Below are positions 1,854-23,930 of a stretch of DNA of 32,000 bases, piece after piece. The translations under genes and the position numbers were made by a program. Each line of letters begins with the position of its first letter. The first letter of the stretch is position 1. The stretch covers positions 2,190,001 to 2,222,000 of the forward strand of contig NZ_LN885086.1 in the NCBI RefSeq assembly GCF_001458695.1, in the 5' to 3' direction. The notes under the pieces are model-generated. The model was not told where the DNA came from and did not search any database. It saw only the letters and a program-made list of their open reading frames with translations. The DNA is from Candidatus Nitrospira inopinata (GTDB taxonomy: Bacteria > Nitrospirota > Nitrospiria > Nitrospirales > Nitrospiraceae).

Positions 1854-2627
1854 GTGAAAGCCGTGATTCTGGCTGGAGGAGTCGGGTCTCGATTAAGCGA
1901 GGAAACCATCGGCCGTCCCAAGCCGATGGTGGAGATCGGCGGCAGGCCGATCCTCTGGCACATCATGAAGATCTATTCGGCCCATGGCATCAATGACTTC
2001 ATTATTTGCCTTGGCTACAAGGGTACCATGATTAAGGACTACTTCGTGAATTATTCCCTGTATCGCTCGGATATCACCATCGATGTGGCTCACAACAAGA
2101 TCGAGGTCCATCACAACCATGCCGAGCCGTGGCGTGTGACGCTGGTGGATACGGGCGAACACACGATGACGGGGGGGAGGCTCAAGCGGGTGGCGCGATA
2201 TGTCGAGGGAGAAGAGTGTTTCTGTTTTACGTACGGCGACGGGGTGGCGGATGTCGATCTGACCGCGGAGATCGCCTTTCATCGGTCGCATCGCAAATTG
2301 GCGACGGTCTGCGCGGTGTTGCCACCCGGTCGGTTCGGCGCATTGGAACTGACGCACGGGCGAGTGGTGAAGTTTACGGAAAAACCCATGGGCGACGGCG
2401 GCTTGATCAACGGCGGTTTTTTTATTCTGTCGCCGAAGGTGATCGACTTCGTGGAACAGGACTCGACGGTGTGGGAGGGCCAGCCACTATATCGGCTGGC
2501 AACGTCGGGGGAACTGATGGCGTTCGAACACCGGGGATTTTGGCACCCGATGGATACGATTCGAGACAAGAATCACCTGGAGGAACTCTGGCGATCGGGG
2601 CGGGCGCCATGGAAAGTGTGGGAGTAA
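1854..2627 (+). CDS. rfbF: glucose-1-phosphate cytidylyltransferase
   Basis: GTG start 4 nt after GAGGAGGG. The N-terminus 'KAVILAGGVGSRLSEETIGRPKPMVEIGGRPILWHIMKIYSAHGINDFIICLGYKG' is the characteristic RfbF/DdhA signature. 257 aa is the typical length. Confidence 0.93.
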   Translation: MKAVILAGGVGSRLSEETIGRPKPMVEIGGRPILWHIMKIYSAHGINDFIICLGYKGTMIKDYFVNYSLYRSDITIDVAHNKIEVHHNHAEPWRVTLVDTGEHTMTGGRLKRVARYVEGEECFCFTYGDGVADVDLTAEIAFHRSHRKLATVCAVLPPGRFGALELTHGRVVKFTEKPMGDGGLINGGFFILSPKVIDFVEQDSTVWEGQPLYRLATSGELMAFEHRGFWHPMDTIRDKNHLEELWRSGRAPWKVWE

Positions 2628-3688
2628 AGCTTCCCTCTGCCGAATTTTGGCGTGGCAAACGGGTGTTGGTCACCGGCCACACGGGGTTCAAGGGAAGCTG
2701 GCTGGCACAGTGGCTGTCGAGGTTAGGTGCGTCTGTCGCGGGTGTCGCATTGCCCCCTGCGACAGAACCCAACCTGTTTACCCTGGCCAGGATCGACAAA
2801 CTGCTCGACGGCTACTTTTGCGACATTCGGTCGTTCGATTCTCTGATTGGGATTATCAAGGCGGTGCAGCCTGAAATCGTCTTTCATCTGGCGGCCCAGC
2901 CGCTTGTGCGGGTGGGATATCGGATGCCGGTCGAAACCATTGAGACGAACGTGATGGGTACCACGTACCTGCTCGAAGCCTTGCGGACAGTAAAGTCTCT
3001 CCTGGTGGCGGTCTTGGCGACGACGGACAAGGTCTATCGGAATCGAGAACATTTGCGCTCCTTCCGGGAAGACGATCCGTTGGGGGGCGATGATCCCTAC
3101 AGTGCCAGCAAGGCGGCGATGGAGATGATTGTTGACAGTTATCGACGGTCATTCTTCGATGAGCGGGGTGTGGCGGTCGCGACGGTCAGAGCTGGCAATG
3201 TGATCGGTGGGGGGGATTGGTCAGCCGATCGGCTGATTCCGGATGCCATTCGGGCGTGGAGCAAGGGGGAGGTTTTGCGCGTCCGGCGCCCCGATGCGGT
3301 ACGGCCTTGGCAACATGTGCTGGAGCCTCTCTGCGGGTATCTTCGTTTGGCGGAATTGCTGTGGGATACACCTTGTCTTGCCGGTCCCTATAACTTTGGT
3401 CCCGACAGTCGGGCGACGGTCGCTGTTCGCGGCGTGGTGGAGTTGGCCCGTGCTGCTTATGGCGGAGGTGACGTTGCCTATGGAGATGGCCATGAAGGGT
3501 TGCATGAGGCAGGAGCGATCGCTTTGGAGTCGACCAAGGCGAAAAGCATCCTCGGGGTGGTTCCTCGGTGGGTGATCAAAACAGCGATAGAACGGACGAT
3601 GAGATGGTATCAACGGCAGGCTGCCGGCGAGGACGCGCGCCGGTTGTGCGAGGAAGATTTCGTCTCTTATGAGGAGCAACCCGCATGA
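2609..3688 (+). CDS. rfbG: CDP-glucose 4,6-dehydratase
   Basis: Internal ATG 2609 of track ORF 2129..3688; the upstream 160 codons overlap rfbF and look non-coding. '[15 protein letters not shown]' is a Rossmann motif and 'YSASKAA' is the catalytic YxxxK. 359 aa. Overlaps the rfbF end by 19 nt. Confidence 0.9.
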
Positions 3689-5025
3689 CGGCCGCCAACG
3701 TCGAAGTCTTGAAAGAAGAAATTCTGCGGTTGGTGGGACAGTACGCCGAGGAAGCCTTCAAAGACCATCCTTTTGTGCCAGATGGTTCCCCGGTTCCCGC
3801 GTCCGGCAAGGTGATTGGCGCGCCGGAATTGCAAAACGCGGTGGAGGCGGCGTTGGATGGTTGGCTCACGGCGGGACGGTTCAATGACCAATTTGAAGAT
3901 CGGCTGGCCACCGTCATGGGAGTGAAATACGCGCTCACGACCAACTCCGGCTCGTCGGCCAACCTGCTCGCCCTGTCTGCCTTGACGTCGCCGGAGTGGG
4001 GAGAACGGGCACTTCGGCCGGGAGACGAAATCATTACCGTGGCAACGGGATTTCCCACAACGGTCAATCCGATTCTTCTGCTTGGGGCTGTGCCGGTGTT
4101 TGTCGATGTGTCGGTGCCGACCTATAACGTTGATGTGGCCCAGTTGGAACAAGCGGTGTCGGAGAAAACCAAGGCGATCGTACTCGCCCACACGCTGGGG
4201 AATCCGTTCGATGTGGCGCGCGTCATGCGAGTCGCCCGCCAATATGGTTTGTGGGTGATCGAGGATTGTTGCGACGCGCTGGGATCCACCTATGAAGGGA
4301 AACCGGTGGGGACCTTTGGCGACATCGGCACGCTGAGCTTCTATCCGGCCCACCACATCACGACGGGCGAGGGCGGCGCCGTCGTGACAAACAACACAAA
4401 ACTCAAGCGGGTTCTGGAGTCGTTTCGGGACTGGGGACGTGATTGCTACTGTCCGCCGGGCCGGGATAATACCTGTGGACGTCGCTACTGCTGGCAACGG
4501 GGGGAACTGCCCAAGGGATATGATCACAAGTACATCTATACACATGCCGGCTATAACCTCAAGATGACCGATTTCCAGGCCGCGGTGGGCCTGGCGCAAT
4601 TGGAGCGACTGCCCGACTTCATCAAGATACGAAAGCGAAACTTCCATTATCTGAAAGAAGGATTGGCTGACCTGCAAGAGTGGCTCATGTTGCCGGAGGC
4701 CACGCCACGGTCCGATCCGTCTTGGTTCGGGTTTCCGATCATGCTCCGCCCCGGCGCCCCAATTACGAGGGTTGAGCTGCTGGAGTCGCTCGATCGTCAT
4801 CGGATTGGGAGTCGCCTTCTCTTCGGAGGGAACCTGACTCGTCAACCATACATGCGAGGGCGGCTCTTTCGCGTGCACGAAGAATTGAGTACGAGCGATT
4901 TGATTATGAACCAAGCGTTCTGGGTCGGCGTGTATCCTGGGCTCGATCGCGTCAAATTGGACTTTGTCATTGAAACCATCACGCGAACGGTGAAGGAGAA
5001 ACAGCGTTTATGCCTGGCTTGCTGA
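3685..5025 (+). CDS. rfbH: CDP-6-deoxy-L-threo-D-glycero-4-hexulose 3-dehydrase (E1; RfbH/DdhC/AscC type, PMP- and [2Fe-2S]-dependent)
   Basis: ATGA overlap with rfbG. DegT/DnrJ/EryC1 fold, with the Schiff-base Lys replaced by His ('[13 protein letters not shown]', first His codon 4351-4353). Cys196, Cys254, Cys256 and Cys264 give exactly the C-X57-C-X1-C-X7-C spacing reported for the E1 iron-sulfur site (Cys codons at 4270, 4444, 4450, 4474). Confidence 0.9.
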
Positions 5026-5609
5026 TAACCAAGCCCGATTCGGTCAAGCAATTGTTTACGGTGACGCCCTCGACCATTTCTGGCTGTGTCGAGCTGCGGC
5101 CACAGGTGCGGGAAGACCGGCGAGGGCGGTTCGTCAAGGTCTTCCATCGACACATGTTTGAGTTGTTGGGACTGTGTGCCGATTATGAGGAAGAATATTA
5201 CTCGGTCTCGCGGAGAGGCGTGATCCGGGGCTTGCATTTTCAGGTCCCTCCGATGGATCACGACAAGCTCATTTATTGTGTCAGCGGCCGCATTCAGGAT
5301 GCCGCTGTGGACCTTCGCTGCGGCTCGCCGACCTACGGGCGATACGCTCTGTTCGACGTATCGGCGGAAGAAGGAAACATGGTCTATGTCCCCCGCGGCC
5401 TCGCTCACGGGTTTTGTACGCTCAGTGAATCCGCGATCGTGGTCTATAAAGTCTCAAGCGTCTATTCAGCAGAGCATGATCGTGGCCTCTTGTGGAATTC
5501 GGCAGGGATTCCCTGGGCGATCGGTGACCCCCTCGTGTCGGACCGGGACTTAACCCATCCTCCGTTTGAGTCGTTCAGAAGTCCGTTCAGCTATGGAGCG
5601 GGCTCATGA
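5010..5609 (+). CDS. RmlC-like cupin sugar-nucleotide epimerase (candidate CDP-4-keto-3,6-dideoxyhexose 5- or 3,5-epimerase, AscE-like)
   Basis: ATG 5010 lies behind GAAGGAGAA and overlaps the rfbH end by 16 nt. 'RGLHFQ', '[19 protein letters not shown]' and '[18 protein letters not shown]' match the RmlC-family His/Lys/Tyr catalytic blocks. Confidence 0.8.
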
Positions 5610-6514
5610 GAATTCTGGTCACCGGCGCCACCGGCTTTCTTGGGTCGCATGTCGTGCCGGCGTTGCGGAAGCAAGGGCATGAAGTGGGCTGTGTCGCACG
5701 AACCGGCTCTCTCCTCAGCCACTCACACGAGGGCTGCTCCGTATGGCGAGTGGCGGACAACGGCCAAGGGCTCCACGCGGCCGTGCAAACGTTTCGACCG
5801 GAGGTTGTCGTCCATTTGGCCGCGCTCTATGTGTGCGAACATCGTGAAAAAGATATCAGTCCCCTGATCAGAGCGAACGTTGAGTTCGGCGCACATCTGC
5901 TCGACGCCATGGGAAAGGGGGGATGCGACGCGCTCGTCTATGCGGGTACGGCCTGGCAGCACTACCGGAATCAAAACTATTGCCCGGTCAATCTTTATGC
6001 CGCGACCAAACAGGCGTTTGTGACAATCGCCGACTACTATCGCGATGCCGATGGCCTGCGTCTCCTGGAACTCCATTTGTACGACAGTTACGGGCCGGAT
6101 GATCAAAGGCCGAAACTGCTCAACCGGTTGTTGGCCGTGGCGGAGACTGGCGAAGAGCTTGCGATGTCCCCCGGCACCCAACTGCTGCATTTGGTGCACG
6201 TCGATGATGTCAGCCGAGGTATCGCAATGGCCTGCGAGCAGGTGGTGTCCTTCAGGCCAGGAGAGCGGCGTGTCTATCGGCTTCCCTCGGAGAGGGCCGT
6301 GACGTTGCGGGAGCTGGTCGAGAAACTGAACGAGGCGGATCCCTTGCGCACCGTGAAGGTGCGGTGGGGAATGAGACCTTTTCGCCGACGCGAAATGTTG
6401 CGGCCGTGGGAAGGGGTGCCGGTTTTGCCGGGCTGGAAGGCAGCGGTTTCTTTGAAGGCGGGATTAGAGGCGATCTGCCGCCTTCGCCCCATCGGCAATC
6501 GGATTGGAGGGTAG
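5606..6514 (+). CDS. NAD(P)-dependent SDR epimerase/reductase (candidate CDP-4-keto-dideoxyhexose 4-reductase)
   Basis: ATGA overlap with the epimerase gene. 'ILVTGATGFLGSHV' is a GxxGxxG motif and 'YAATKQA' is YxxxK. 302 aa, a similar size to RfbS/RfbJ/AscF-type reductases. Confidence 0.8.
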   Translation: MRILVTGATGFLGSHVVPALRKQGHEVGCVARTGSLLSHSHEGCSVWRVADNGQGLHAAVQTFRPEVVVHLAALYVCEHREKDISPLIRANVEFGAHLLDAMGKGGCDALVYAGTAWQHYRNQNYCPVNLYAATKQAFVTIADYYRDADGLRLLELHLYDSYGPDDQRPKLLNRLLAVAETGEELAMSPGTQLLHLVHVDDVSRGIAMACEQVVSFRPGERRVYRLPSERAVTLRELVEKLNEADPLRTVKVRWGMRPFRRREMLRPWEGVPVLPGWKAAVSLKAGLEAICRLRPIGNRIGG

Positions 6515-6515
6515 A

Positions 6516-7556
6516 ATGTCCCTGCCGCTGGTCAGTCTCTGCATTCCCAATTACAACAATGAGCGATATCTGGACGTCTGCATCAGGAGCGCACTCTCTC
6601 AAACGTGGCCCCATGTCGAAGTTGTCCTTGTGGACGACTGTTCGACGGATGGCTCGTTCTCACTGGCCCGAAAATATGAGGAGCGGATTCGGCTGTTTCG
6701 CAATGAGAAAAATCTTGGACAGCCGGCGAACACCAATCGCTGCGTCGAGTTGGCGCGAGGAGAATTCGTGGCCATCGTGCACGGCGACGACTATCTCCTG
6801 CCGACCTTTGTAGAACGGTTGGCGCCGCTTCTGCAGCAGTACGAACGAGCCGCTCTCGCGATCGGTGAACGGTACGAGACCGACGAAACAGGCGTGCTAC
6901 GGAACGTGACGCCGTTTTACACAACCGATTGCCTGATTCCTGGAGAAAAACAGGCCAAAGTATTCATGTTCATGTCGTTTCCGCCTTGCCAGGTGTTGAT
7001 CAGACGAGCCGTTTACCGGAGCATCGGAGGGGCCGATCTCCGCCACGTGGTGAATCTGGACGGATTGCTGTGGTTCAAATGTGCGCTGGTCGGCGACATC
7101 GTCTATGTTCGTGAGCCCGTCGGTGTGTATCGAAAACACGGCGAAAGCACGACCGCCCGCTACAACAGACGCATCGATCACATGATCGAATATTACATGA
7201 CTTTATTGGCGATGCAGGAGGCGGGACGAGGCAGACCGTATTTGGAGCGATATTATGACGCGGCCGTCAAACGCGTGGGCGAGTTGACGGTTCGGTATTG
7301 TCGAGAGGTGTTTCGCGAAAAGAATTACGAGTTGGCCAAACGGTATCTTGCCTTGGCGACAGTGTTTGATCCCGCAATCAGCAAATCGAATCAGTGGCGG
7401 GCGCTGCACTATTGCCTTGAGAGCGAAGATCGCGACCCTCATGACCTGTATCGGCGGCTGATGGAGGGAGAGACTCAGCAGCGCATCACCAGTTATGAAC
7501 CGCCGGAGGGATTTCAAGCACTGAAAAGTCAACAAGCTGGAGGGGCGTCGTCATGA
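6516..7556 (+). CDS. family-2 glycosyltransferase
   Basis: ATG 6516 (the track starts at TTG 6504) lies 1 nt after the upstream stop and is preceded by GGAGG. 'VSLCIPNYNNERYLDVCIRSALSQTWPHVEVVLVDDCSTDGS' and 'HGDDY' (DxD-like) are typical of GT-A/GT2. Confidence 0.85.
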   Translation: MSLPLVSLCIPNYNNERYLDVCIRSALSQTWPHVEVVLVDDCSTDGSFSLARKYEERIRLFRNEKNLGQPANTNRCVELARGEFVAIVHGDDYLLPTFVERLAPLLQQYERAALAIGERYETDETGVLRNVTPFYTTDCLIPGEKQAKVFMFMSFPPCQVLIRRAVYRSIGGADLRHVVNLDGLLWFKCALVGDIVYVREPVGVYRKHGESTTARYNRRIDHMIEYYMTLLAMQEAGRGRPYLERYYDAAVKRVGELTVRYCREVFREKNYELAKRYLALATVFDPAISKSNQWRALHYCLESEDRDPHDLYRRLMEGETQQRITSYEPPEGFQALKSQQAGGASS

Positions 7557-8948: not shown

Positions 8949-9977
8949 ATGAAAGCGCAATTGAAACCCCGGATCAACCTCGACCATCGGACGCCGCTCC
9001 AGGACGTGATTCCACTTTCCACGCCGATGGTGCTGTTCGTCGATCCCGTCGATACATGCAATTTTCGTTGTACCTTTTGTCCGACGGGAGACCGAGAGCT
9101 GATCAAATCCACGGGTCGGTGGCAGGGGCGAATGTCGCTCGATTTGTTTAAAAAGATCATCGACGACCTGGCCGAATTCGAGCAGCCGATCAAAGTCCTG
9201 CGTCTGTACAAGGAAGGCGAGCCGCTCCTACACACGCAGTTCGCCGAGATGGTGTGGTATGCCAAGCGGAGCGGCCGCGTGGAATATATCGACACGACGA
9301 CCAATGGCTATTTGCTGAGTCCGGAGCGGGTGGGGCCGATTCTTGACGCCGGGATCGATCGCATCAACATTTCCGTTGACGGGATGTCGAGCGAACAATT
9401 TTGGCGGTTCACTAAAACCAGGGTCGATTTCGAGAAATACGTCGAGAACATCCGGCATCTCTATGAGCGCAAGGGATCCTGCGAGATCTGCATCAAAATT
9501 CCGGGCGACATCCTGTCCGATGACGACAAACAACGGTTCTTCGACACCTTCGGCGACTACGCGGACCGAATCTCAATCGAAAACTTCGCGCCCTGCTGGC
9601 CGGAATTCGACGTGGAAGCGCGCAGCGGCATCGCGATCACGGAGGGGATTTACGGCAACCCGATCAAGGAAGTGTCGGTCTGCCCCTATATTTTTTACTC
9701 CATGGCGGTGAATACCGACGGAACGGTCAGCCTTTGTTTTTTGGACTGGGCCCGCAAGCTCGTCATCGGAGACACACGTCTTCAATCTCTTAAGTCGATC
9801 TGGGACGGCGAGTCGATGCACCGGCATCGAGTCGCCCACTTGAAGGGACGGCGCAAGGACAATCCGACTTGCGCCGACTGCGGCCAGCTCAGCCACTGTC
9901 TGCCGGACGATATCGACGCGTACGCCGCCTCTTTGCTGACGAGAATTGAACGGCCACAAAAAACCGGGAGTCGCTGA
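8949..9977 (+). CDS. radical SAM / SPASM-domain enzyme
   Basis: ATG 8949 lies behind AAGGAG; the track start 8889 is an upstream extension. CX3CX2C motif 'CNFRCTFC' at 9057-9080. The C-terminal 'CPYIFYSMAVNTDGTVSLCFLDW ... CADCGQLSHC' is typical of a SPASM auxiliary-cluster region. Confidence 0.85.
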   Translation: MKAQLKPRINLDHRTPLQDVIPLSTPMVLFVDPVDTCNFRCTFCPTGDRELIKSTGRWQGRMSLDLFKKIIDDLAEFEQPIKVLRLYKEGEPLLHTQFAEMVWYAKRSGRVEYIDTTTNGYLLSPERVGPILDAGIDRINISVDGMSSEQFWRFTKTRVDFEKYVENIRHLYERKGSCEICIKIPGDILSDDDKQRFFDTFGDYADRISIENFAPCWPEFDVEARSGIAITEGIYGNPIKEVSVCPYIFYSMAVNTDGTVSLCFLDWARKLVIGDTRLQSLKSIWDGESMHRHRVAHLKGRRKDNPTCADCGQLSHCLPDDIDAYAASLLTRIERPQKTGSR

Positions 9978-11668: not shown

Positions 11669-12951
11669 GAGTCTTGCACATCACTGCCCATCTTGGCGGC
11701 GGGGTTGGCAAGGTCTTGTCCGGCGTGGTCGCCGAATCGGCGCGACGCCGTGACGACACGCGCCATACCATTGCCTGTCTCGAGGTGCCGGAGAAGCGCA
11801 CGTTTCTCGACCGTGTCCTTTCATGGGGAGGAGAGGTGCTGATCGCTCCCTCGTTCGACCGCCTGGCCGAAGAGGTCGACCGCGCCGATATCGTGCAAGT
11901 GGAATGGTGGCACCATCCCACTGTCGCGGGATGGCTGTGTTCCGGCGTTCTGCCTTCCATGCGATTGCTCGTCTGGTGCCACGTGTCCGGGCTGTATCCT
12001 CCCGTTATTCCCCCCGAGTTTGTTTTGTCGGTTCATCGATTTCTTTTTACGTCGCCGTGCAGTTGGGAGCACCCGACCTTGGCGGCCTTGCGGCCCAGGC
12101 TCAAGGGGCGAGCGGAGGTGGTTTTTGGCTCAGGCGGGTTTGATGATCTGCCTCCTCCGCCGGAGCGGGTCTTTGAAACGTCGCTACAAGTAGGGTACGT
12201 CGGCTCCCTCAATTTCTCCAAACTTCATCCGCGCATTTTGGACTTTGTTCAGGCCGCCCGTCTGCCGAACTTTCGATTGGCTCTTGTTGGTGATCCGGTG
12301 ACGGGGCAGCAATTGATAGCCGAGGCGGCGATGATGGGGGTAAGAAACCGGCTTGACGTGCGGGGGTATCGCGAACAGGTTTCGGCGGAGTTAGTTGGGT
12401 TCGATGTTTTCGCCTATCTTCTCAACCCATTCCATTACGGCACAACGGAAAATGCGTTGCTTGAAGCGATGGCCATGGGAGTTGTGCCGATCGTACTCAA
12501 CAATCCAGCGGAGCGATGTGTGGTCTCGCACGGGGAAACCGGCGTGATTGTCAATGGTCCTTCTCAATTCGCCGATGCGCTGGACTGGCTGGCGGCTCAC
12601 CCCTTGGAACGAGCAAGGTTGTCGGCGAACGCCAGTCGTCTGGTGCGCCGGCGCTTTGCCATTGGTCGTACTGTTGCGGGATTGGAACATCATTATCAGC
12701 GGTTGTTCACCGAGCCAAAACGCTCCTTCGACTTTCGGCCGATCTTCGGAGAAGAACCGGCCGATTGGTTTCGGTCTTGCCAGGGAGATGAAGCCTGGAG
12801 GTTTCAGCAGAATGGCATGCTGCATGACGCCGCCAGGCGAGGGCCCGCGGTGCTCTACGAACGGACCAAGGGGTCCGTTTTTCACTACCATGCCGTCTAT
12901 CAGGCGGACGAACGGTTGGCTCGATGGGCGAAACAGCTCGATGCCGCATGA
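11665..12951 (+). CDS. GT-B fold glycosyltransferase (GT4/GT1-like)
   Basis: ATG 11665 overlaps the upstream stop (ATGA); the track start 11569 is an extension. 'MRVLHITAHLGGGVGKVL' is a typical N-terminus and 'GTTENALLEAMAMGVVPIV' is the E-x7-E donor-binding motif. Confidence 0.8.
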   Translation: MRVLHITAHLGGGVGKVLSGVVAESARRRDDTRHTIACLEVPEKRTFLDRVLSWGGEVLIAPSFDRLAEEVDRADIVQVEWWHHPTVAGWLCSGVLPSMRLLVWCHVSGLYPPVIPPEFVLSVHRFLFTSPCSWEHPTLAALRPRLKGRAEVVFGSGGFDDLPPPPERVFETSLQVGYVGSLNFSKLHPRILDFVQAARLPNFRLALVGDPVTGQQLIAEAAMMGVRNRLDVRGYREQVSAELVGFDVFAYLLNPFHYGTTENALLEAMAMGVVPIVLNNPAERCVVSHGETGVIVNGPSQFADALDWLAAHPLERARLSANASRLVRRRFAIGRTVAGLEHHYQRLFTEPKRSFDFRPIFGEEPADWFRSCQGDEAWRFQQNGMLHDAARRGPAVLYERTKGSVFHYHAVYQADERLARWAKQLDAA

Positions 12952-19163: not shown

Positions 19164-20363
19164 ATGGCAAGGGCGCTGGTCGTTCAACTCGCCCGGCTCG
19201 GCGATCTGATCCAGACGATCCCGGCGATCATGGCGCTCAGGATGGCCCATCCGACCGATGGCCTCGATCTCCTGTGTCCGTCCTCCCTGGCGCCGATCGG
19301 GCGGCTGATACCGGGTGTTGACAGGGTTTTGGAATGGGATGGGTTCGTCTGGCACCGGTGGGCGGATGAAGCGTCGGTCGATTTTTTGCCGGCGCACCTT
19401 GAGCGGGCCACGAAACAGCTTGAGGCTCTGGCAACGCACCGGTATGGGACGGCCTATGTTCTGAACCATCATCGTCGGGCATTGTTGGCCGGTTCCTTGC
19501 TGGCTGACGAAGTGAGAGGACCGTTGCTCGACGGTCCTCTCGGGACCGCTCTGTCTCCCTGGGCTTCGTATGTGCGAGACGTCGCGCATACGGGGCATGG
19601 CTGCCGTGTGCATTTGGCCGATGCGCTCTGCGGGCTGTGCGGAGTCTCTCCTTCCGGGAACCCTCCGGCTCTGATCAACACGTCGCACCCGTTGCCGGCC
19701 GACTTGGAATCGCTCGGCAGTCACGGAGAGCCGTGGGTCGGGCTCATCGTCGGAGCCGGAGCGGTTGAACGGCTGGTGCCGATCGACGTTTGGAAACAAT
19801 TGGTCATCAGGTTTCTGGAGACGACCCCGTCCGGCCGCGTCATCCTGCTCGGCCGGGAGCGGGAGCGAGGGAGGCAGCTTCACGATCTCCTGCCGCCTTT
19901 GCTGCTTGGTCGAGTCTGGGATGTCACAGGCCGGATCTCGCTACATGACCTGGTTGCCGTCATGAGCCGCTGTCACCTTGTCGTCGGCGCTGATACGGGC
20001 CCGCTGCATCTGGCTGCCGCTGTCGGAGTCAGAGTGATCGGCTGGTACTTTGCGCGGGCTCGTGTGCATGAGACCGGCCCCTATGGCGTCGGCCATGTGG
20101 TGTGGCAAGCGGAGGATTCAAATGGGAAAGGCCACAGTGAGCGAACCGATGTCAGACCGCTTCAGTGGCCGATAGAGGAAACGGCTGGTCTTCTGACGCA
20201 GGGCCGGGAATTGGCAACCGCGCCCATGGTATCCGGCTGGTCAGTCTGGACCAGCCACTGCGACCGATGGGGCGCCTATTACACCAAGATGGGTGACCCA
20301 TCCATCTCCCCTCCGGAGCGTGAAGCACTGTGGAGCAAACTGTCGTCCTTGGTCTGCCGGTGA
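19164..20363 (+). CDS. family-9 (heptosyltransferase-like) GT-B glycosyltransferase
   Basis: ATG 19164 lies 7 nt after the upstream stop; the track start 19080 is an extension. 'ALVVQLARLGDLIQTIPAI' and 'LVVGADTGPLHLAAAVGVRVIG' are the two GT9 signature blocks. Confidence 0.8.
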   Translation: MARALVVQLARLGDLIQTIPAIMALRMAHPTDGLDLLCPSSLAPIGRLIPGVDRVLEWDGFVWHRWADEASVDFLPAHLERATKQLEALATHRYGTAYVLNHHRRALLAGSLLADEVRGPLLDGPLGTALSPWASYVRDVAHTGHGCRVHLADALCGLCGVSPSGNPPALINTSHPLPADLESLGSHGEPWVGLIVGAGAVERLVPIDVWKQLVIRFLETTPSGRVILLGRERERGRQLHDLLPPLLLGRVWDVTGRISLHDLVAVMSRCHLVVGADTGPLHLAAAVGVRVIGWYFARARVHETGPYGVGHVVWQAEDSNGKGHSERTDVRPLQWPIEETAGLLTQGRELATAPMVSGWSVWTSHCDRWGAYYTKMGDPSISPPEREALWSKLSSLVCR

Positions 20364-20374: not shown

Positions 20375-22192
20375 GTGAGCGTCTTGCGAGAAAATCTTGA
20401 ACGGCTTGCCAACACAGATCCGGCACTTGCGGACGCTGTGCGATCTTCATCAGGAGGTGTGCTCTCGCTCCTTCCATCGCGCGAGGGAACGGTCACGGCG
20501 AAATGCGGCGATCGATGGATTCACAGTTCGTACGATCCTCGTAAAGAAGCCCGCTCCTGGGCTGACGCGCAATTCAAAGACTGGAGAGATGAGGAAGTCG
20601 GTGTGGTGCTCGGTGTCGGGCTCTTGTATCACGTGGAGGCGTTGGCGTCGCTGAAGCAAGACGGCCGCAGGTTGGCGGTGCTTGTTCCGGATCCGTCCGT
20701 GCTCAAAGACGCGCTTGGCGCTCGTGCGCTTGGTCGCTGGCTCGAAGCCGTTGAGTGGATCTGGGGCCATCCGTCGGACATGGCGGACCGTTTGGCCGGC
20801 CTTGCGAGCCCCTTGCGGTTCATGACCTATGCGCCGGCAGCCGGCCTGCATGAAGCCGTTCACCGTGAGGTGGAGGCATCTTTGCGCCGGATGGTGGCGG
20901 CCCGGCAGGGGGGACAACTGCGGATCGCCGTCGTGGGTCCGATTTACGGCGGATCATTGCCGATCGGCCGCTATGTGACCTCGGCGCTGGAGTCGCTTGG
21001 GCATCGCGCGACCTGGATCGACCACAGTGTTCATCATGCAGGCTACCGGCGGTTCGATTCCTACCGCGACGTCCGCCATCGTCTAACGATGCAGAGCCGC
21101 TTCGCGGAGCTCTTGAGTTTGGATACGGTCGCTCGATTGGCCGAGGATCCGCCCGACCTGGTGCTTGCCGTCGCCCAGGCGCCGCTGACGGCCGGCGTGT
21201 TGGAGCACGTGCGGAAGAAGAAATTTCCCACCATCATGTGGTTCGTGGAAAATTATCGACATTTGACCTATTGGCGGCAACTGGCATCGAGCTATGACTA
21301 TTGGTTTGTGATTCAGCGGGGAGACTGTGTCGAAGCGCTGAGAAGGGCCGGCGCGCGGCAGGTGCACTATCTTCCTGTTGCGGCCGATGTGGACGTACAC
21401 GCGCCCTGTTCTCTCACCGACGCCGAACGAGCCGAATACGGCGCCGATGTCTCGTTCGTGGGGGCCGGTTACCGGAACCGACGTATGCTCTTGCCTCGCT
21501 GGTTGTCGCCCGAATGGACCTTCAAGCTGTGGGGAACCGAATGGGAAGGAGCGGCCGATCTGACTTCGGTGTTGCAGCGAGGCGGCGCCCGCATCGACAT
21601 CGAGACCTGCCGAAAGGTATTCAACGCCACCACCATCAATTTGAATCTCCATTCATACAACGGACCATCGTTGGACCCCCAGGCGGACTTTGTGAATCCA
21701 CGGACGTTCGAACTGGCTGCTTGTGGGGCGTTTCAATTGACCGACGAACGATCATTGTTGCCCGAGTTGTTTACTGACCAGGAAATTATTCGATTCCGAT
21801 CCGCTGATGAAGTGCCGCAGTTGATCCGCCGGTGGCTTCATGACGACCACAAAAGGAGGGAGGTGGCTGAGGCCGCACGGCGGCGAGTCCTGGCCCACCA
21901 TACCTATCGCCATCGGATGGAAGATCTATTGGGGGTGATCGGCCTTCGGCAGCCGAATCGAATCGGCGCCATCTTGCAAGGCGATCGCAATGCGGGGGCT
22001 CTGGCCGCTCGGCCCGAGACTCCGCCGGAGTTGGCGGCGCTCCTGGGTCGATTTCCCCCCAATCAGCGGGTCGAACTGAAGGATGTGGCTGACAACATTC
22101 GGGCCCGCGGCGCCGGCCGTCGCTTGGCTCGCGAGGAATTGCTCATTCTTTTGTTGGATAGTTACCGCTCGGAAACGAGGGATCTTGTCTGA
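20375..22192 (+). CDS. Maf-N-terminal-like domain fused to CgeB-type (DUF3880 / Glyco_trans_1_2-like) glycosyltransferase
   Basis: GTG 20375 lies 4 nt after GAGGG. Alternative in-frame starts are GTG 20360 (GTGA overlap with the GT9 stop) and GTG 20330. The N-terminus 'LRENLERLANTDPALADAV ... IHSSYDPRKEARSWA ... VVLGVGLLYH' resembles the N-terminal region of Maf flagellin glycosyltransferases. The C-terminus 'INLNLH..NPRTFELAACGAFQLTD..IIRFRSADEV..AARRRVLAHHTYRHRMEDLL' matches CgeB-type GT domains. Confidence 0.65.
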   Translation: MSVLRENLERLANTDPALADAVRSSSGGVLSLLPSREGTVTAKCGDRWIHSSYDPRKEARSWADAQFKDWRDEEVGVVLGVGLLYHVEALASLKQDGRRLAVLVPDPSVLKDALGARALGRWLEAVEWIWGHPSDMADRLAGLASPLRFMTYAPAAGLHEAVHREVEASLRRMVAARQGGQLRIAVVGPIYGGSLPIGRYVTSALESLGHRATWIDHSVHHAGYRRFDSYRDVRHRLTMQSRFAELLSLDTVARLAEDPPDLVLAVAQAPLTAGVLEHVRKKKFPTIMWFVENYRHLTYWRQLASSYDYWFVIQRGDCVEALRRAGARQVHYLPVAADVDVHAPCSLTDAERAEYGADVSFVGAGYRNRRMLLPRWLSPEWTFKLWGTEWEGAADLTSVLQRGGARIDIETCRKVFNATTINLNLHSYNGPSLDPQADFVNPRTFELAACGAFQLTDERSLLPELFTDQEIIRFRSADEVPQLIRRWLHDDHKRREVAEAARRRVLAHHTYRHRMEDLLGVIGLRQPNRIGAILQGDRNAGALAARPETPPELAALLGRFPPNQRVELKDVADNIRARGAGRRLAREELLILLLDSYRSETRDLV

Positions 22193-22265
22193 CGGTTCGT
22201 GAACGAGATGGGGGAAACGAGTGAATCGGGACGGCGTTTCAAACCGGACTGATGACACAGGGCGT

Positions 22266-23930
22266 ATGAGGCAAGTCCTGGTCGTGAATGTGACCAGGAT
22301 GGGCGACCTGGTGCAGATGGGGGCTCTGCTGGGCCGGCTGGCGCAAGAATGGCCTGGCTGTGCCGTCGATCTCGTGATCGATCGACGGTTCGCTTCCGTC
22401 GCTGCTCTGTTACCTGGTTTACGCGAGGTCGTCACCCATGACTTTCATGAGCTGATCGATGAGAGTCGAGCGGCCGTCAAAGATGTTGTCGCCCTGTATC
22501 GGGAGCTGGCGGAGTGGGTCCGTCCGTTGGTGGAGCGCCGGTATGACCGCATCATCAATCTCACGTTCAACCGGGCCAGCGCGCTCCTGGTCGGCGTCAT
22601 CGGGGCTCCCGACATCCGTGGGGCTCGAACCGCTTGGGATGGCGGCACGGTCATCGACAACCTCTGGATGGCCTATTTCGCGGATATGCACCATTTTCGT
22701 CGGATCAATCGGTTCAATCTGGTCGATCTCTACGCTTTGGGCGGGAGCGGGCCAGGTCCCTTCACGCCGCTTAAGCTGACGGTGGGAAGAGTGGATCAAG
22801 AATGGGCTCGCTGCGTCATCTCGGCCAACGGCCATGAGCGGATGGAGTGGATTGCAGTCCAAGCCGGCGCCAGCGACGTCATGAAGGCGTGGCGGCCCCA
22901 GCATTTTGGTCGCACGTTGGCGCTTCTGTCGAAACCATGGAGCGGGGGTTTTCTTTTTCTGGGGGCTGAGTCCGAACGAGGCGTCGTCTCGCAAGTGTTG
23001 CAAGCCTATCGAGAGGCAGGAGGACGGAACCCGGTCAGCAGCGAGGTGGGGAAGACGACCGTGGCCCAAGCCACGGCGTTGCTGGCTGCCTCTCGCCTGC
23101 TGCTGACGAATGATACGGGGCCCATGCACTTGGCCGTCGCGGTGGGGACTCCGGTCGTCGATCTCTCGGTCGGCCACGTCGATTTTTGGGAGACAGGTCC
23201 GTATGGGCCGGGCCATTGGGTGCTTCAGCCGGAGTTGGACTGTGCACCCTGTGGATTCGATCAAGTGTGCCCGCATCAAACCTGCAAGGATCAATTGCAG
23301 ACCGATCAAGTGACGGCGTTGTTGCTTCACGTCTTGGGTCGCGGACCATTTCCGTCCGACATTCGAGGGTTCCGTGTGTATCAATCCGATGTCGATGAAG
23401 ACGGCTTGGGAACATTCAGATGTTGCGCGGGGCAGGAGCCGCCCGATGTGGCCTGGCATGCTTCGTTTTGGCGGCGCTATTGGTATGAAACCTTCACAGG
23501 GGTCCAAAGTCGAATCCCTTCCACGGAGATTCCGCCGCCCGACGTCGATGAGGCTCGGTCGGTGATCGAGAGCCTGGCGCCGGCCGTCGAGCGGGCCTGC
23601 GCCGCAGCCGATGAAGTCGTGCGGGTGGCAACCCAACGATTCGTCGACGCCGAGAGGCTTCGGGCATTGCAGCGCGCGCTTTCCCGTGAACGGGAACGGC
23701 TCGTTGCGTTGGGCATGAGCACGATGGCCACAAGACCGATCACGACGGCGTTTGTCAGGGCCATTCAGAGCGACGATATGGAGGGCTTGGGGCAAATGGC
23801 GCGGCATCATGCGCGGGCGTATCAGCGGTGGAGGGCGCAGTTGGTTCATCTGGGTCAAGCGTTTGGGATTGGGAGACAGAAGGAGGCGAAGACGCCGCCG
23901 CCTCGATATGCGTCGACAGCCGTTCAATGA
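22266..23930 (+). CDS. family-9 (heptosyltransferase-like) glycosyltransferase with Cys-cluster insertion and ~200-aa helical C-terminal extension
   Basis: ATG 22266 gives the typical GT9 N-terminus 'MRQVLVVNVTRMGDLVQ'; GTG 22221 is the alternative start. 'LLLTNDTGPMHLAVAVGTPVVDL' is the second GT9 block. 'CAPCGFDQVCPHQTC' is a Cys4 cluster. The C-terminal ~200 aa are Ala/Arg-rich and look helical. Confidence 0.75.
   Translation: MRQVLVVNVTRMGDLVQMGALLGRLAQEWPGCAVDLVIDRRFASVAALLPGLREVVTHDFHELIDESRAAVKDVVALYRELAEWVRPLVERRYDRIINLTFNRASALLVGVIGAPDIRGARTAWDGGTVIDNLWMAYFADMHHFRRINRFNLVDLYALGGSGPGPFTPLKLTVGRVDQEWARCVISANGHERMEWIAVQAGASDVMKAWRPQHFGRTLALLSKPWSGGFLFLGAESERGVVSQVLQAYREAGGRNPVSSEVGKTTVAQATALLAASRLLLTNDTGPMHLAVAVGTPVVDLSVGHVDFWETGPYGPGHWVLQPELDCAPCGFDQVCPHQTCKDQLQTDQVTALLLHVLGRGPFPSDIRGFRVYQSDVDEDGLGTFRCCAGQEPPDVAWHASFWRRYWYETFTGVQSRIPSTEIPPPDVDEARSVIESLAPAVERACAAADEVVRVATQRFVDAERLRALQRALSRERERLVALGMSTMATRPITTAFVRAIQSDDMEGLGQMARHHARAYQRWRAQLVHLGQAFGIGRQKEAKTPPPRYASTAVQ

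What the first reader, a model, noticed from the sequence alone, without database searches (positions are those of the whole stretch)
1854..23930. 22-kb membrane-protein-free glycan operon between a c-di-GMP brake module and fliC: candidate flagellin glycosylation island built on a CDP-3,6-dideoxyhexose
Sixteen co-directional genes are chained by stop/start overlaps: ATGA at 3685, 5606, 7553, 11665 and 12948, TGATG at 9975, TAATG at 14115. The other gaps are 1-73 nt, so this looks like one translationally coupled unit. It combines a CDP-sugar pathway, three radical-SAM enzymes, at least two methyltransferase modules and about eight or nine glycosyltransferase modules (one GT2, three or four in the giant protein, one GT4, two GT9, one CgeB-like). 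By eye, no product has a transmembrane-like hydrophobic stretch. There is no Wzx/Wzy/Wzz, ABC exporter, WbaP/WecA-type initiating transferase or ligase, and these are the hallmarks of undecaprenyl-linked polysaccharide assembly. The block ends 890 nt upstream of a flagellin whose short variable region is Ser/Thr-rich. One of its genes carries a Maf-like N-domain. The flagellin glycosylation systems I know use nonulosonic acids (Campylobacter, Helicobacter, Aeromonas, Caulobacter) or dTDP-sugars (Pseudomonas). 3,6-dideoxyhexoses are classically O-antigen sugars of Salmonella and Yersinia. A CDP-dideoxyhexose-based, radical-SAM-tailored flagellin glycan would, to my knowledge, be undescribed.
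Basis: partly seen in the sequence, partly recalled or inferred. Interest (0 to 1): 0.82.

Follow-up and report, generated by a model that had tools for sequence, protein, structure and literature searches.

The report
Nitrospira flagellin glycosylation island
This block of 15 membrane-free sugar-building genes in a Nitrospira genome is most likely a cluster that decorates the flagellar filament protein with sugars; it pairs a strain-specific rare-sugar pathway with a conserved set of uncharacterised transferases that always sits next to the flagellin gene.

Summary
The interval has 15 co-directional genes, not 16, and all seven stop/start overlaps are at the stated coordinates. It encodes RfbF/RfbG/RfbH, three radical-SAM enzymes, two methyltransferase modules and eight glycosyltransferase modules, with no membrane protein. 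The "890-nt gap" before fliC holds an overlooked conserved 174-aa gene.

The organism is a Nitrospira. In 67 of 67 Nitrospira-family loci with enough downstream sequence, the order multi-GT2/TPR protein, GT9, Maf-N::GT-B protein, long GT9, small ORF, fliC-(flaG)-fliD-fliS is invariant. The genes upstream of that core vary between species (B12-radical-SAM, ThDP enzymes, DegT, NeuB and others). That pattern is typical of a flagellin glycosylation island.

The 605-aa "CgeB-like" protein belongs to a family whose N-domain matches the Maf N-terminal domain. Its catalytic part is a GT-B fold, not the Maf sialyltransferase-like domain. The same protein, long GT9 and DUF8042 set occurs in other phyla, usually beside flagellar genes.

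The claimed novelty of a CDP-dideoxyhexose flagellin glycan is weakened, because similar islands were predicted in Clostridium (2026) and Enterobacterales (2016). The uncharacterised transferase core is the more novel part.

The parts
1752..1829 (+). Putative regulatory region of the island: palindrome GGCAAATTCTGCC (1752-1764), then a sigma54-type -24/-12 element TGGCACGCAGTTTGA (1815-1829), 25 nt before the rfbF start
   Evidence: Sequence. This is the only strict TGGCA[CT]-N5-TTG[CA] match on either strand of the window. A -24/-12-like motif lies in the intergenic region after ycgR in 15/17 Nitrospira loci (background 0.046 per 330 nt). A GGCA-N5-7-TGCC-like palindrome lies 63-100 nt upstream of it in 13/17 (background 0.11). 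Function is inferred.
1854..2627 (+). rfbF, glucose-1-phosphate cytidylyltransferase (257 aa)
   Evidence: TIGR02623, 452.6 bits (cut-off 300.25)
2609..3688 (+). rfbG, CDP-glucose 4,6-dehydratase (359 aa)
   Evidence: TIGR02622, 439 bits (cut-off 278.45). Start taken from gene calls on identical contigs.
3685..5025 (+). rfbH / E1, CDP-6-deoxy-L-threo-D-glycero-4-hexulose 3-dehydrase (446 aa)
   Evidence: NF011936, 715.6 bits (cut-off 423). PDB 3bcx/3bb8, E about 1e-186. His replaces the PLP lysine (SFYPAHH, 218-224). Cys196-x57-Cys254-x1-Cys256-x7-Cys264 is present.
5010..5609 (+). RmlC-fold sugar epimerase (199 aa), probably a 5-epimerase of the CDP-4-keto-3,6-dideoxyhexose
   Evidence: PF00908, 179.6 bits. 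Best solved relative is 5buv 'putative epimerase', E 1.8e-42, ahead of the dTDP RmlC enzymes. Substrate is inferred.
5606..6514 (+). SDR-family NAD(P)-dependent sugar reductase/epimerase (302 aa), probably the 4-ketoreductase
   Evidence: PF01370, 115.5 bits. No equivalog-level match.
6516..7556 (+). GT2 glycosyltransferase (346 aa)
   Evidence: PF00535, 102.6 bits
7553..8923 (+). Radical-SAM protein (456 aa) with a Rossmann-like N-domain shared with the FkbM protein
   Evidence: PF04055, 37.3 bits (cut-off 29.5). CTMTCEGC motif. N-domain similarity to 12948-14117, E 5e-5.
8949..9977 (+). Radical-SAM/SPASM protein (342 aa; an alternative start at 8889 gives 362 aa)
   Evidence: PF04055 75 bits and PF13186 49.7 bits. 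Weak PDB similarity to MoaA, BtrN and BlsE.
9977..11668 (+). B12-binding radical-SAM protein with a C-terminal TPR (563 aa)
   Evidence: PF02310 and PF04055. Best solved relative is AprD4 (6fd2), E 1.8e-16.
11665..12951 (+). GT4-type (Glycos_transf_1) glycosyltransferase (428 aa)
   Evidence: PF13692 and PF00534
12948..14117 (+). FkbM-family methyltransferase (389 aa)
   Evidence: PF05050, 34.7 bits (cut-off 22.7); TIGR01444
14117..19156 (+). 1679-aa multidomain protein: unassigned N-region (1-370), GT2, class I methyltransferase, GT2, GT2, C-terminal TPR. The C-terminal ~800 aa (from 16757) is the first member of the conserved core.
   Evidence: Pfam: three GT2 stretches, a methyltransferase at 679-832 and TPR at 1492-1552. 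The N-region has no family. The C-terminal part is conserved at 43-85% protein identity across Nitrospira loci, while the N-terminal part is not.
19164..20363 (+). GT9a, family-9 glycosyltransferase (399 aa), core
   Evidence: PF01075, 58.9 bits. Conserved in position in every Nitrospira-family locus that reaches it.
20375..22192 (+). Maf-N::GT-B glycosyltransferase (605 aa), core. Residues 1-176 form a Maf-N-like alpha/beta domain, 183 to about 510 a GT-B fold (DUF3880 + Glyco_trans_1_2, 'CgeB-like'), and the C-terminus is helical.
   Evidence: PF13524 128.7 bits and PF12996 55.9 bits. Of 22 family N-domains, 21 match PF20157 Maf_flag10_N (best E 1.8e-12); this window's copy is the one that does not. 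The N-domain profile hits Maf structure 5mu5 at E 5.2e-5. PF20157 is precomputed on most relatives. AF2 pLDDT is 91.5. Foldseek top hits are GT4-type GT-B enzymes.
22266..23930 (+). GT9b, long family-9 glycosyltransferase (554 aa) with an invariant Cys-x2-Cys-x5-Cys-x-His-x2-Cys knuckle and a ~200-aa helical C-extension, core
   Evidence: PF01075, 60 bits. An identical 554-aa product is on record. C326, C329, C335, H337 and C340 are invariant in 41 orthologues. AF2 pLDDT is 79.5. Foldseek top hits are WaaF, 3tov and WaaC.
24090..24614 (+).
   Evidence: Called as a 174-181-aa gene in the same position in relatives. Identity is 43-94%, with an invariant C-terminal ADLLEYEILPRL. hhalign to DUF8042 proteins in the same position in other phyla gives probability 73%, E 3.1e-5, over the C-terminal 32 columns only.
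24699..24725 (+). Sigma28 (FliA)-type promoter of fliC: TTAAGTCCTGTGAAGTTTGACCGATAA
   Evidence: Only strict match in the window on either strand. A relaxed motif is present upstream of fliC in 68/68 loci.
24822..25649 (+). fliC, 275-aa flagellin lacking outer domains; the Ser/Thr-rich central segment 138-190 is the presumed acceptor
   Evidence: PF00669 and PF00700. Identity across Nitrospira is 81-99%. Ser/Thr is 40% against 19% elsewhere, p=0.003.
25727..27972 (+). flaG (25727-26122), fliD (26170-27561), fliS (27577-27972)
   Evidence: NCBIfam FlaG, FliD and FliS

Best explanation
This is the flagellin glycosylation island of a Nitrospira species. It has two parts.

(1) A conserved transferase core sits next to fliC. 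It comprises the C-terminal GT2+TPR part of the 1679-aa protein, GT9a, a 605-aa Maf-N::GT-B protein, the long GT9b with a Cys/His knuckle, and a 174-aa DUF8042-like protein.

(2) A lineage-specific sugar module is inserted between ycgR and the core.

Proposed chemistry (inferred). RfbF and RfbG make CDP-4-keto-6-deoxyglucose. RfbH (E1) removes the 3-OH, with a reductase encoded elsewhere. The RmlC-fold epimerase and the SDR reductase then finish a CDP-3,6-dideoxyhexose, probably an L-series, ascarylose-type sugar. The three radical-SAM enzymes, the FkbM methyltransferase and the class I methyltransferase tailor the sugar or the glycan, for example by C- or O-methylation.

Proposed transfer (inferred). 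All products are soluble. The glycan would therefore be assembled in the cytoplasm from nucleotide sugars directly onto Ser/Thr of the flagellin's central segment, before FliS-assisted export. The Maf-N::GT-B protein is my best candidate for the flagellin-directed enzyme, by analogy with FlmG (substrate-binding N-domain plus GT-B). The GT9, GT2 and GT4 modules would extend the chain.

Proposed regulation (inferred). A sigma54-type promoter with an upstream palindrome would drive the island. fliC has its own sigma28-type promoter.

Shown: gene content, synteny, domain homology and motifs. Inferred: the acceptor, the sugar identity, the order of transfers and the regulation.
For: - Organism: relatives are named Nitrospira.
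- Synteny: in 67/67 Nitrospira-family loci with at least 3.6 kb downstream, fliC lies 2.3-3.3 kb after the Maf-N::GT-B gene. The order giant-C, GT9a, Maf-N::GT-B, GT9b, small ORF, fliC is invariant.
- Variable module: the upstream 10 kb or less holds 68 protein families among 58 loci, 31 of them in a single locus. They include four B12-radical-SAM families, ThDP enzymes, DegT, SDRs, CmcI O-methyltransferase, GNAT and, in two species, NeuB. One locus has ycgR directly followed by the core.
- No membrane proteins or export genes in the window or 10 kb upstream.
- Maf N-domain homology: 21/22 family members hit PF20157, and the profile hits 5mu5 at E 5.2e-5.
- Outside Nitrospira: 6/6 contexts keep Maf-N::GT-B followed by a long GT9, 5/6 add DUF8042, and 4/6 lie beside MotAB, PilZ or flagellin genes. 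One of these also has a true Maf (PF01973+TPR) in the cluster.
- Rfb pathway.
- Ser/Thr-rich flagellin centre.
- Promoters.
- Modular precedent: FlmG, PMC7591256.
Against: - There is no direct evidence that Nitrospira flagellin is glycosylated. No paper on it was found in the searched library.
- No known flagellin transferase domain is present: no PF01973, and no FlmG/GmaR-type match was tested positive.
- The window's own protein does not reach the Maf_flag10_N model by itself.
- The function of the Maf N-domain is itself unknown (PMC11339370).
- Two of six non-Nitrospira contexts have no flagellar gene within 10 kb.
- The E3 reductase required by E1 is absent from the window.
- GT9 enzymes and RfbFGH are classically LPS enzymes.
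- The sigma54 -12 element is TTGA rather than the consensus TTGC.
Confidence: 0.78

Rival explanations
1. An LPS O-antigen/core or exopolysaccharide locus that only happens to lie beside fliC. The CDP-dideoxyhexose and GT9 enzymes would serve the outer membrane, and the missing flippase, polymerase or exporter would be encoded elsewhere.
For: RfbF/G/H are the classical O-antigen dideoxyhexose enzymes, and GT9 proteins match LPS heptosyltransferase models weakly. A phosphoglucomutase gene lies 8 kb upstream, on the other strand.
Against: There is no initiating phosphoglycosyl transferase, Wzx/Wzy/Wzz, ABC exporter or ligase, and no membrane protein at all, in 22 kb plus 10 kb upstream. Linkage to fliC is invariant in 67/67 loci across 55-82% protein identity, while the sugar genes are swapped. 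The GT9 scores (59-64 bits) are far below the LPS heptosyltransferase cut-offs of 135-185 bits. A core member carries a Maf N-domain.
Confidence: 0.07
2. A cytoplasmic protein-glycosylation system whose acceptor is not the flagellin. The acceptor could be another flagellar or surface protein (hook, cap, stator-associated or secreted protein), or a broader set of proteins.
For: In other phyla the Maf-N::GT-B, GT9 and DUF8042 set more often abuts MotAB/PilZ than flagellin, and two contexts have no flagellar genes nearby. GT9-family enzymes can glycosylate proteins, as TibC does (PMC4358343).
Against: In Nitrospira the set always directly precedes fliC. The flagellin centre is Ser/Thr-rich and conserved. 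One non-Nitrospira cluster lies directly after flagellin-flaG-fliD-fliS-fliT. TibC was not among sequence or fold matches of GT9b.
Confidence: 0.1
3. Synthesis of a soluble cytoplasmic product, such as a methylated oligo- or polysaccharide or a glycosylated small molecule, with no protein acceptor.
For: The block has many glycosyltransferases and methyltransferases and no membrane step. The best fold match of the 605-aa protein is a methylmannose-polysaccharide mannosyltransferase. Radical-SAM and B12 enzymes are typical of natural-product tailoring.
Against: This does not explain the invariant flagellin linkage, the Maf N-domain, the TPR modules, the sigma54 and sigma28 promoter arrangement, or the NeuB and true-Maf genes in equivalent clusters. 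The fold match is generic GT4 similarity (TM 0.4-0.6, 12-16% identity).
Confidence: 0.05

Closest known systems
Flagellin glycosylation islands (Campylobacter, Pseudomonas aeruginosa a-type, Aeromonas, Geobacillus, Clostridium, Enterobacterales)
   Same: It lies beside fliC. It combines nucleotide-sugar biosynthesis with soluble glycosyltransferases and methyltransferases, has no export genes, and its content varies between related genomes (PMC4875605, PMC5109656, PMC13317340).
   Different: It has no Maf (PF01973), FlmG, GmaR or Fgt-type enzyme. The conserved transferases are two GT9 proteins, a Maf-N::GT-B chimera, a multi-GT2/TPR giant and a DUF8042-like protein. It carries three radical-SAM enzymes. 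The host is a nitrite-oxidising Nitrospira, for which no such island is described in the searched literature.
Maf (motility accessory factor) flagellin nonulosonic-acid transferases, e.g. Magnetospirillum Maf (PDB 5mu5), C. jejuni Maf and CbMaf
   Same: The N-terminal alpha/beta domain of the 605-aa family is homologous to the Maf N-terminal domain (PF20157 in 21/22 members; 5mu5 at E 5.2e-5). It has a flagellar genomic context.
   Different: The catalytic MAF_flag10/MptE-like domain is absent. It is replaced by a GT4-like GT-B fold. There are no CMP-nonulosonate genes in this window.
FlmG of Caulobacter crescentus (TPR N-domain + GT-B C-domain; PMC7591256)
   Same: It has about the same size (596 against 605 aa) and the same modular logic: a non-catalytic N-domain followed by a GT-B transferase, encoded with flagellin genes and acting in the cytoplasm.
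   Different: The N-domain here is Maf-N-like, not TPR. Homology to FlmG was not tested. The donor sugar is presumably not pseudaminic acid.
CDP-3,6-dideoxyhexose (Rfb/Ddh/Asc) pathways of Salmonella and Yersinia O-antigens
   Same: RfbF, RfbG and RfbH/E1 match at equivalog level with intact E1 motifs. An RmlC-fold epimerase plus an SDR reductase recalls the AscE/AscF arrangement for ascarylose (the AscE/AscF comparison is from my own knowledge).
   Different: There is no E3 (AscD/RfbI) reductase in the island. There is no Und-P machinery. The pathway is coupled to radical-SAM enzymes and lies in a flagellar locus.
Predicted CDP-paratose / 3,6-dideoxyhexose flagellar islands of Clostridium butyricum, C. 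sporogenes and C. thermosuccinogenes (PMC13317340), and CDP-4-keto-6-deoxyglucose islands of Erwinia/Pantoea (PMC4875605)
   Same: A CDP-deoxyhexose pathway is encoded inside a flagellin glycosylation island. These cases, like this one, are predictions from sequence.
   Different: The terminal enzymes differ (RfbS there; epimerase plus reductase here). The transferases differ (GT2/TPR or Maf there). The phylum differs, and those islands have no radical-SAM trio.
BAHT protein heptosyltransferases (TibC/AAH; PMC4358343)
   Same: Both have the GT9 fold and a four-ligand Cys cluster inserted late in the C-lobe.
   Different: The Cys spacing differs (C-x2-C-x5-C-x4-C, with an invariant His, against C-x2-C-x15-C-x11-C). 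TibC is not among the sequence or top-50 fold matches. The knuckle is modelled at low confidence.

Membership tests
Flagellin glycosylation island | Located next to the flagellin gene, with linkage conserved in relatives | tested here: met
   fliC follows the core in 67/67 Nitrospira-family loci with enough downstream sequence, always in the same order.
Flagellin glycosylation island | Nucleotide-sugar biosynthesis plus soluble transferases, with no lipid-carrier or export machinery | tested here: met
   Pfam/NCBIfam assignments. No transmembrane-like segment. No exporter in the 10 kb upstream.
Flagellin glycosylation island | Gene content variable between related strains or species | tested here: met
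   68 families, 31 of them in a single locus, in the upstream 10 kb or less of 58 loci. The modules differ.
Flagellin glycosylation island | Contains an experimentally established type of flagellin glycosyltransferase (Maf, FlmG, GmaR, FgtA/Fgt1) | tested here: not met
   No PF01973 hit. Only the Maf N-domain is shared.
Flagellin glycosylation island | Flagellin carries an O-linked glycan that depends on the island | not testable with these tools
   Needs mass spectrometry and mutants.
Maf glycosyltransferases | Maf N-terminal domain (PF20157) | tested here: met
   21 of 22 family N-domains hit PF20157 (best E 1.8e-12), and the profile hits 5mu5 at E 5.2e-5. The window's copy alone gives no hit, so membership rests on family homology (35-57% identity to the other members of the family alignment).
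Maf glycosyltransferases | Central MAF_flag10 / MptE-like catalytic domain (PF01973) | tested here: not met
   No Pfam hit. The model shows a GT-B fold that matches GT4 enzymes.
Maf glycosyltransferases | CMP-nonulosonic acid donor | not testable with these tools
   No NeuB/PseI-type gene in the window. NeuB is present at the equivalent place in L032 and L023.
CDP-3,6-dideoxyhexose pathway | Glucose-1-phosphate cytidylyltransferase and CDP-glucose 4,6-dehydratase | tested here: met
   TIGR02623 at 452.6 bits and TIGR02622 at 439 bits, both above cut-off.
CDP-3,6-dideoxyhexose pathway | E1 3-dehydrase, with His in place of the PLP lysine and a [2Fe-2S] Cys motif | tested here: met
   NF011936 at 715.6 bits. 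3bcx at E 9.6e-187. SFYPAHH and C-x57-C-x1-C-x7-C are present. The motif definition is from my own knowledge.
CDP-3,6-dideoxyhexose pathway | E3 (AscD/RfbI/DdhD) flavin/[2Fe-2S] reductase | tested here: not met
   No such protein among the products of the window or in the 10 kb upstream. It could be encoded elsewhere in the genome.
CDP-3,6-dideoxyhexose pathway | Terminal enzymes that fix the sugar's identity (RfbS/RfbE, RfbJ or AscE/AscF) | tested here: inconclusive
   An RmlC-fold epimerase (best hit 5buv) and a generic SDR are present. There is no equivalog-level match, so ascarylose-type is an inference.
BAHT (TibC/AAH) protein heptosyltransferases | GT9 catalytic fold with iron finger, beta-hairpin thumb and N-terminal beta-barrel | tested here: inconclusive
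   The GT9 fold is met. A Cys4/His cluster is present but with different spacing (PMC4358343). TibC is not retrieved by sequence or among the top 50 fold hits.
Und-P-linked polysaccharide (Wzx/Wzy or ABC) loci | Initiating phosphoglycosyl transferase, flippase/polymerase or ABC exporter, chain-length regulator, ligase | tested here: not met
   None in the window or 10 kb upstream.

The most novel reading that the evidence does not exclude
The set of Maf-N::GT-B protein, long Cys-knuckle GT9 and DUF8042 protein is an unrecognised flagellin (or flagellar) glycosyltransferase machine. It spans several phyla: Nitrospirota, Nitrospinota, Latescibacterota and Dissulfurispiraceae. In it the enigmatic Maf N-domain acts as a portable flagellin- or export-apparatus-targeting module, attached to a non-sialyltransferase catalytic domain. 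In this Nitrospira the machine would build a methylated oligosaccharide containing a radical-SAM-tailored CDP-derived 3,6-dideoxyhexose. That would be a flagellin glycan chemistry not yet shown experimentally in any organism.
Probability: 0.4. Interest if true: 0.72.

Novelty: new variant of a known kind. Interest (0 to 1): 0.55.

Why it matters
Nitrospira are the main nitrite oxidisers, and include complete ammonia oxidisers, in soils, wastewater plants and drinking-water systems. Their motility and surface biology are almost unstudied.

If the island works as proposed, three things follow:
- Flagellin glycosylation would be shown to be a universal, conserved trait of a whole environmental genus, with a species-variable glycan. 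That suggests diversifying pressure, for example from phages or grazers.
- There would be a third architectural solution for flagellin O-glycosyltransferases besides Maf and FlmG. This would give the Maf N-terminal domain, whose role is unknown, a testable function.
- A CDP-3,6-dideoxyhexose pathway would be linked to three radical-SAM enzymes, a possible source of new deoxysugar-tailoring chemistry.

If flagellin turns out to be unmodified, the block is an unusual membrane-free glycan operon of unknown product.

Tried and rejected
- Direct Pfam and PDB sequence searches of the window's 605-aa protein for a Maf domain gave nothing. Only a family profile and scans of the other members showed the Maf N-domain.
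- The Foldseek search of the whole model was dominated by the GT-B part. It could not test the N-domain separately.
- I considered that GT9b is a TibC-like protein heptosyltransferase because of its invariant Cys cluster. Sequence and fold searches did not retrieve TibC, and the knuckle is poorly modelled. I left this as unsupported.
- A fourth glycosyltransferase module in residues 1-370 of the giant protein has no Pfam support even at E up to 10.
- The terminator scan of 19000-28400 found no more sites than shuffles do (8 against 7.7). It says nothing about operon ends.
- The composition profile shows no GC break at the island borders, so there is no compositional sign of recent transfer.
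- The orf174/DUF8042 relation rests on only 32 aligned columns. I treat it as a lead.
- Long antisense ORFs, such as 22419-23939 on the minus strand, lie wholly within well-supported plus-strand genes in 58% GC DNA. I did not pursue them.
- The phage, plasmid and E. coli collections were not searched, because they are irrelevant to a Nitrospira chromosome.

Full report
**Observation**

The window has a continuous run of plus-strand genes from 1854 to 23930. ATGA lies at 3685, 5606, 7553, 11665 and 12948, TGATG at 9975 and TAATG at 14115. The remaining junctions are short overlaps or gaps of 1-73 nt, using starts from gene calls on identical public contigs.

I count 15 genes in the interval, not 16. 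Pfam and NCBIfam assign them as follows:

| Coordinates | Assignment | Support |
|---|---|---|
| 1854-2627 | RfbF | TIGR02623, 452.6 bits |
| 2609-3688 | RfbG | TIGR02622, 439 bits |
| 3685-5025 | RfbH | NF011936, 715.6 bits |
| 5010-5609 | RmlC-fold epimerase | Pfam |
| 5606-6514 | SDR reductase | Pfam |
| 6516-7556 | GT2 | Pfam |
| 7553-8923 | radical-SAM | Pfam |
| 8949-9977 | radical-SAM/SPASM | Pfam |
| 9977-11668 | B12-radical-SAM with TPR | Pfam |
| 11665-12951 | GT4 | Pfam |
| 12948-14117 | FkbM methyltransferase | Pfam, NCBIfam |
| 14117-19156 | 1679-aa protein: three GT2 domains, a class I methyltransferase, C-terminal TPR | Pfam |
| 19164-20363 | GT9a | Pfam |
| 20375-22192 | 605-aa DUF3880 + Glyco_trans_1_2 ("CgeB-like") protein | Pfam |
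| 22266-23930 | GT9b | Pfam |

The three Rfb scores are all above the curated cut-offs. A 19-residue Kyte-Doolittle scan finds no transmembrane-like segment. The three windows that reach 1.75-1.77 lie inside Rossmann-type strands.

The 890 nt before fliC is not empty. A 174-aa gene at 24090-24614 is called in the same place in relatives and is conserved at 43-94% identity.

**Source and surroundings**

Homologues of the 605-aa protein and of GT9b are named Nitrospira sp.. Contigs carrying the window's own PilZ protein extend the view 10 kb to the left. They hold two HD-GYP genes, a hybrid histidine kinase, an ammonium transporter, phosphoglucomutase (opposite strand) and lipoyl synthase. No flippase, polymerase, ABC exporter or initiating transferase is present.

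To the right lie fliC, flaG, fliD, fliS, a FliT-like ORF, a GGDEF protein, a PilZ protein, a soluble MCP-like protein and CheY.

**Comparative anatomy**

A scan of one genome per species returned 80 loci, all named Nitrospira or Nitrospiraceae apart from a few labelled "uncultured bacterium" or "Nitrosospira".

- In all 67 loci with at least 3.6 kb downstream, fliC lies 2.3-3.3 kb after the 605-aa gene.
- The order giant-protein C-terminus, GT9a, 605-aa protein, GT9b, small ORF, fliC, (flaG), fliD, fliS never changes. Protein identities to the window range from 55-82% for the 605-aa protein and 66-98% for flagellin.
- Orthologues of the B12-radical-SAM, FkbM and giant N-terminal region occur in only two to three close relatives. 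GT4 orthologues also occur in four further loci (L017-L020).

Clustering of all ORFs in the 10 kb or less upstream of GT9a gave 68 families among 58 loci, 31 of them in one locus only. Representatives include four different B12-radical-SAM families, ThDP enzymes, DegT enzymes, several SDRs, a CmcI-type O-methyltransferase, GNAT acetyltransferases, CgeB+methyltransferase fusions and, in two species, NeuB.

In 16 loci the YcgR-type PilZ gene is again the left border, 4.6-8.8 kb from the 605-aa gene. In one locus it is followed directly by the giant gene.

The structure is therefore a conserved transferase core abutting fliC, plus a replaceable sugar module between ycgR and the core. This is the known signature of flagellin glycosylation islands (PMC4875605, PMC5109656, PMC13317340).

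**The 605-aa protein**

On its own it matches only PF13524 and PF12996. It has no PDB sequence match.

A search of 1.84 billion representatives found 246 clusters at E up to 1e-30, many of them full-length at 30-41% identity. Several results then point to a Maf-type N-domain:

- The N-terminal 180 residues of 22 members were scanned individually, and 21 matched PF20157, "Glycosyltransferase Maf N-terminal domain" (best E 1.8e-12). The window's copy was the exception.
- A profile of that region hit the Magnetospirillum Maf structure 5mu5 at E 5.2e-5.
- PF20157 is also precomputed on most relatives from Latescibacterota, Nitrospirota, Dissulfurispiraceae and Nitrospinota.

The AlphaFold model (pLDDT 91.5) shows three parts: an alpha/beta N-domain (1-176), a complete GT-B fold (183 to about 510) and a helical tail. 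Foldseek matches GT4-type GT-B enzymes. The Maf catalytic domain (PF01973) is absent, so the protein is not a Maf.

The role of the Maf N-domain is unknown (PMC11339370). The architecture parallels FlmG, in which a TPR N-domain binds flagellins and a GT-B domain transfers the sugar (PMC7591256).

**The partners**

GT9b has the GT9 fold (WaaF, 3tov and WaaC are the top Foldseek hits). It also has a helical extension of about 200 aa and an invariant C326/C329/C335/H337/C340 cluster. TibC-type protein heptosyltransferases have an iron finger at a similar place (PMC4358343). However, the spacing differs and TibC was not retrieved, so I do not claim that relationship.

Outside Nitrospira I examined six contexts:

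- All six keep the 605-aa-type gene followed at once by a long GT9 of 554-599 aa.
- Five of six add a DUF8042 protein.
- Four of six continue into response regulator, PilZ and MotAB genes. One of these (L093) also follows flagellin-flaG-fliD-fliS-fliT, and another (L095) also contains a true Maf (PF01973+TPR).

The Nitrospira 174-aa protein aligns with DUF8042 only over its C-terminal 32 columns (hhalign probability 73%, E 3.1e-5).

**The sugar module**

RfbH is 1e-186 from the Yersinia pseudotuberculosis E1 structures. It has His in place of the PLP lysine and a C-x57-C-x1-C-x7-C motif. The epimerase is closest to 5buv, ahead of the dTDP RmlC enzymes.

With C3 deoxygenated, an RmlC-fold enzyme can act only at C5. 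I therefore infer an L-series 3,6-dideoxyhexose of ascarylose type after 4-reduction by the SDR. This is inference. The E3 reductase that E1 needs is not in the window or in the 10 kb upstream of it.

The B12-radical-SAM enzyme is nearest to AprD4, which acts on an aminoglycoside sugar. The SPASM enzyme is weakly similar to MoaA, BtrN and BlsE. Sugar tailoring is therefore plausible but unspecified.

**Regulation (inferred)**

The only strict sigma54-type -24/-12 match in the window, TGGCACGCAGTTTGA, lies at 1815-1829 and ends 25 nt before the rfbF start. A palindrome, GGCAAATTCTGCC, lies 63 nt upstream of it. Equivalent motifs follow ycgR in 15/17 and 13/17 loci, against backgrounds of 0.046 and 0.11 per 330 nt.

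A sigma28-type element, TTAAGT-N13-ACCGATAA, lies 97 nt before fliC. It is the only strict match in the window, and a relaxed form is found upstream of fliC in 68/68 loci.

**Acceptor**

The flagellin has only the conserved helical domains and a short central segment. Residues 138-190 are 40% Ser/Thr against 19% elsewhere (p=0.003), and the segment is conserved across the genus.

**Literature**

No paper in the library links Nitrospira with flagellin glycosylation, CgeB-like proteins with flagellin, or mentions PF20157 or DUF8042.

CDP-paratose/3,6-dideoxyhexose genes were predicted in Clostridium flagellar islands in 2026 (PMC13317340). CDP-4-keto-6-deoxyglucose genes were predicted in enterobacterial ones in 2016 (PMC4875605). 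Both are predictions without chemistry.

**Verdict**

The block is most likely a flagellin glycosylation island (confidence about 0.78). The rival readings are LPS/EPS synthesis (0.07), a non-flagellin protein acceptor (0.10) and a soluble product (0.05).

It is a new variant of a known kind. The location and overall logic are ordinary. The conserved transferase set and the radical-SAM-rich CDP-dideoxyhexose module are not described. The decisive test is mass spectrometry of Nitrospira flagellin.

Noticed in passing
It has an invariant C-terminal ADLLEYEILPRL. It is weakly related (32 columns, E 3.1e-5) to the DUF8042 proteins that follow the long GT9 in other phyla.
   Followed up: partly
window 1752-1829: A sigma54-type -24/-12 element with an upstream GGCA-N5-TGCC palindrome lies between ycgR and rfbF. 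Both motifs recur after ycgR in most Nitrospira loci, whatever the first island gene is. This suggests control by an enhancer-binding protein, as in flagellar regulons.
   Followed up: partly
window 69-1705 and 28286-29709: The flagellin/glycosylation locus is bracketed by c-di-GMP modules on both sides: HD-GYP plus YcgR-type PilZ on the left, GGDEF plus PilZ on the right. A second, divergent HD-GYP gene lies just outside the window (L006).
   Followed up: no
window 29829-30857: A soluble 342-aa protein has an MCP signalling segment at its N-terminus and a dCache-like domain at its C-terminus. This is the reverse of the usual order, and it has no transmembrane segment.
   Followed up: no
window 7553-8080 and 12948-13550: The first radical-SAM protein and the FkbM methyltransferase share a Rossmann-like N-domain of about 90 residues (LYGxGKxG..., 27% identity, E 5e-5). 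It has no Pfam family, apart from a weak NeuD/PglB/VioB-type NCBIfam match for the radical-SAM copy.
   Followed up: partly
window 23241-23285 (GT9b residues 326-340): A Cys-x2-Cys-x5-Cys-x-His-x2-Cys cluster is invariant in 41 Nitrospira orthologues. It may be a metal knuckle, at a position reminiscent of the TibC iron finger. It is modelled at low confidence.
   Followed up: partly
L032 1273-3855 and L023 1293-3855: Two other Nitrospira species carry NeuB, a GNAT and a CmcI-type O-methyltransferase directly upstream of the same transferase core. Some members of the genus may therefore use a nonulosonic acid.
   Followed up: partly
L001 1671-3509; L039, L075 and others: Several Nitrospira islands pair a ThDP-dependent enzyme with a B12-radical-SAM enzyme. 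From my own knowledge this recalls YerE-type branched-chain deoxysugar synthesis. It was not tested.
   Followed up: no
L095 3981-6002: A non-Nitrospira cluster has a canonical Maf (PF01973 + TPR) and sulfotransferase/TPR proteins together with the Maf-N::GT-B, GT9 and DUF8042 set, upstream of PilZ and MotAB.
   Followed up: no
window 27969-28289: An ORF of about 106 aa after fliS is only faintly FliT-like (Pfam E 0.22). It occupies the fliT position and is called as a gene in relatives.
   Followed up: partly
window 14117-15226: The first 370 residues of the 1679-aa protein match no Pfam family, and this part is not conserved in more distant Nitrospira.
   Followed up: partly
L006 1251-2891 (about 8 kb upstream of the window start): A phosphoglucomutase/phosphomannomutase gene lies on the opposite strand. 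It could supply glucose-1-phosphate for RfbF, or its position could be coincidental.
   Followed up: no
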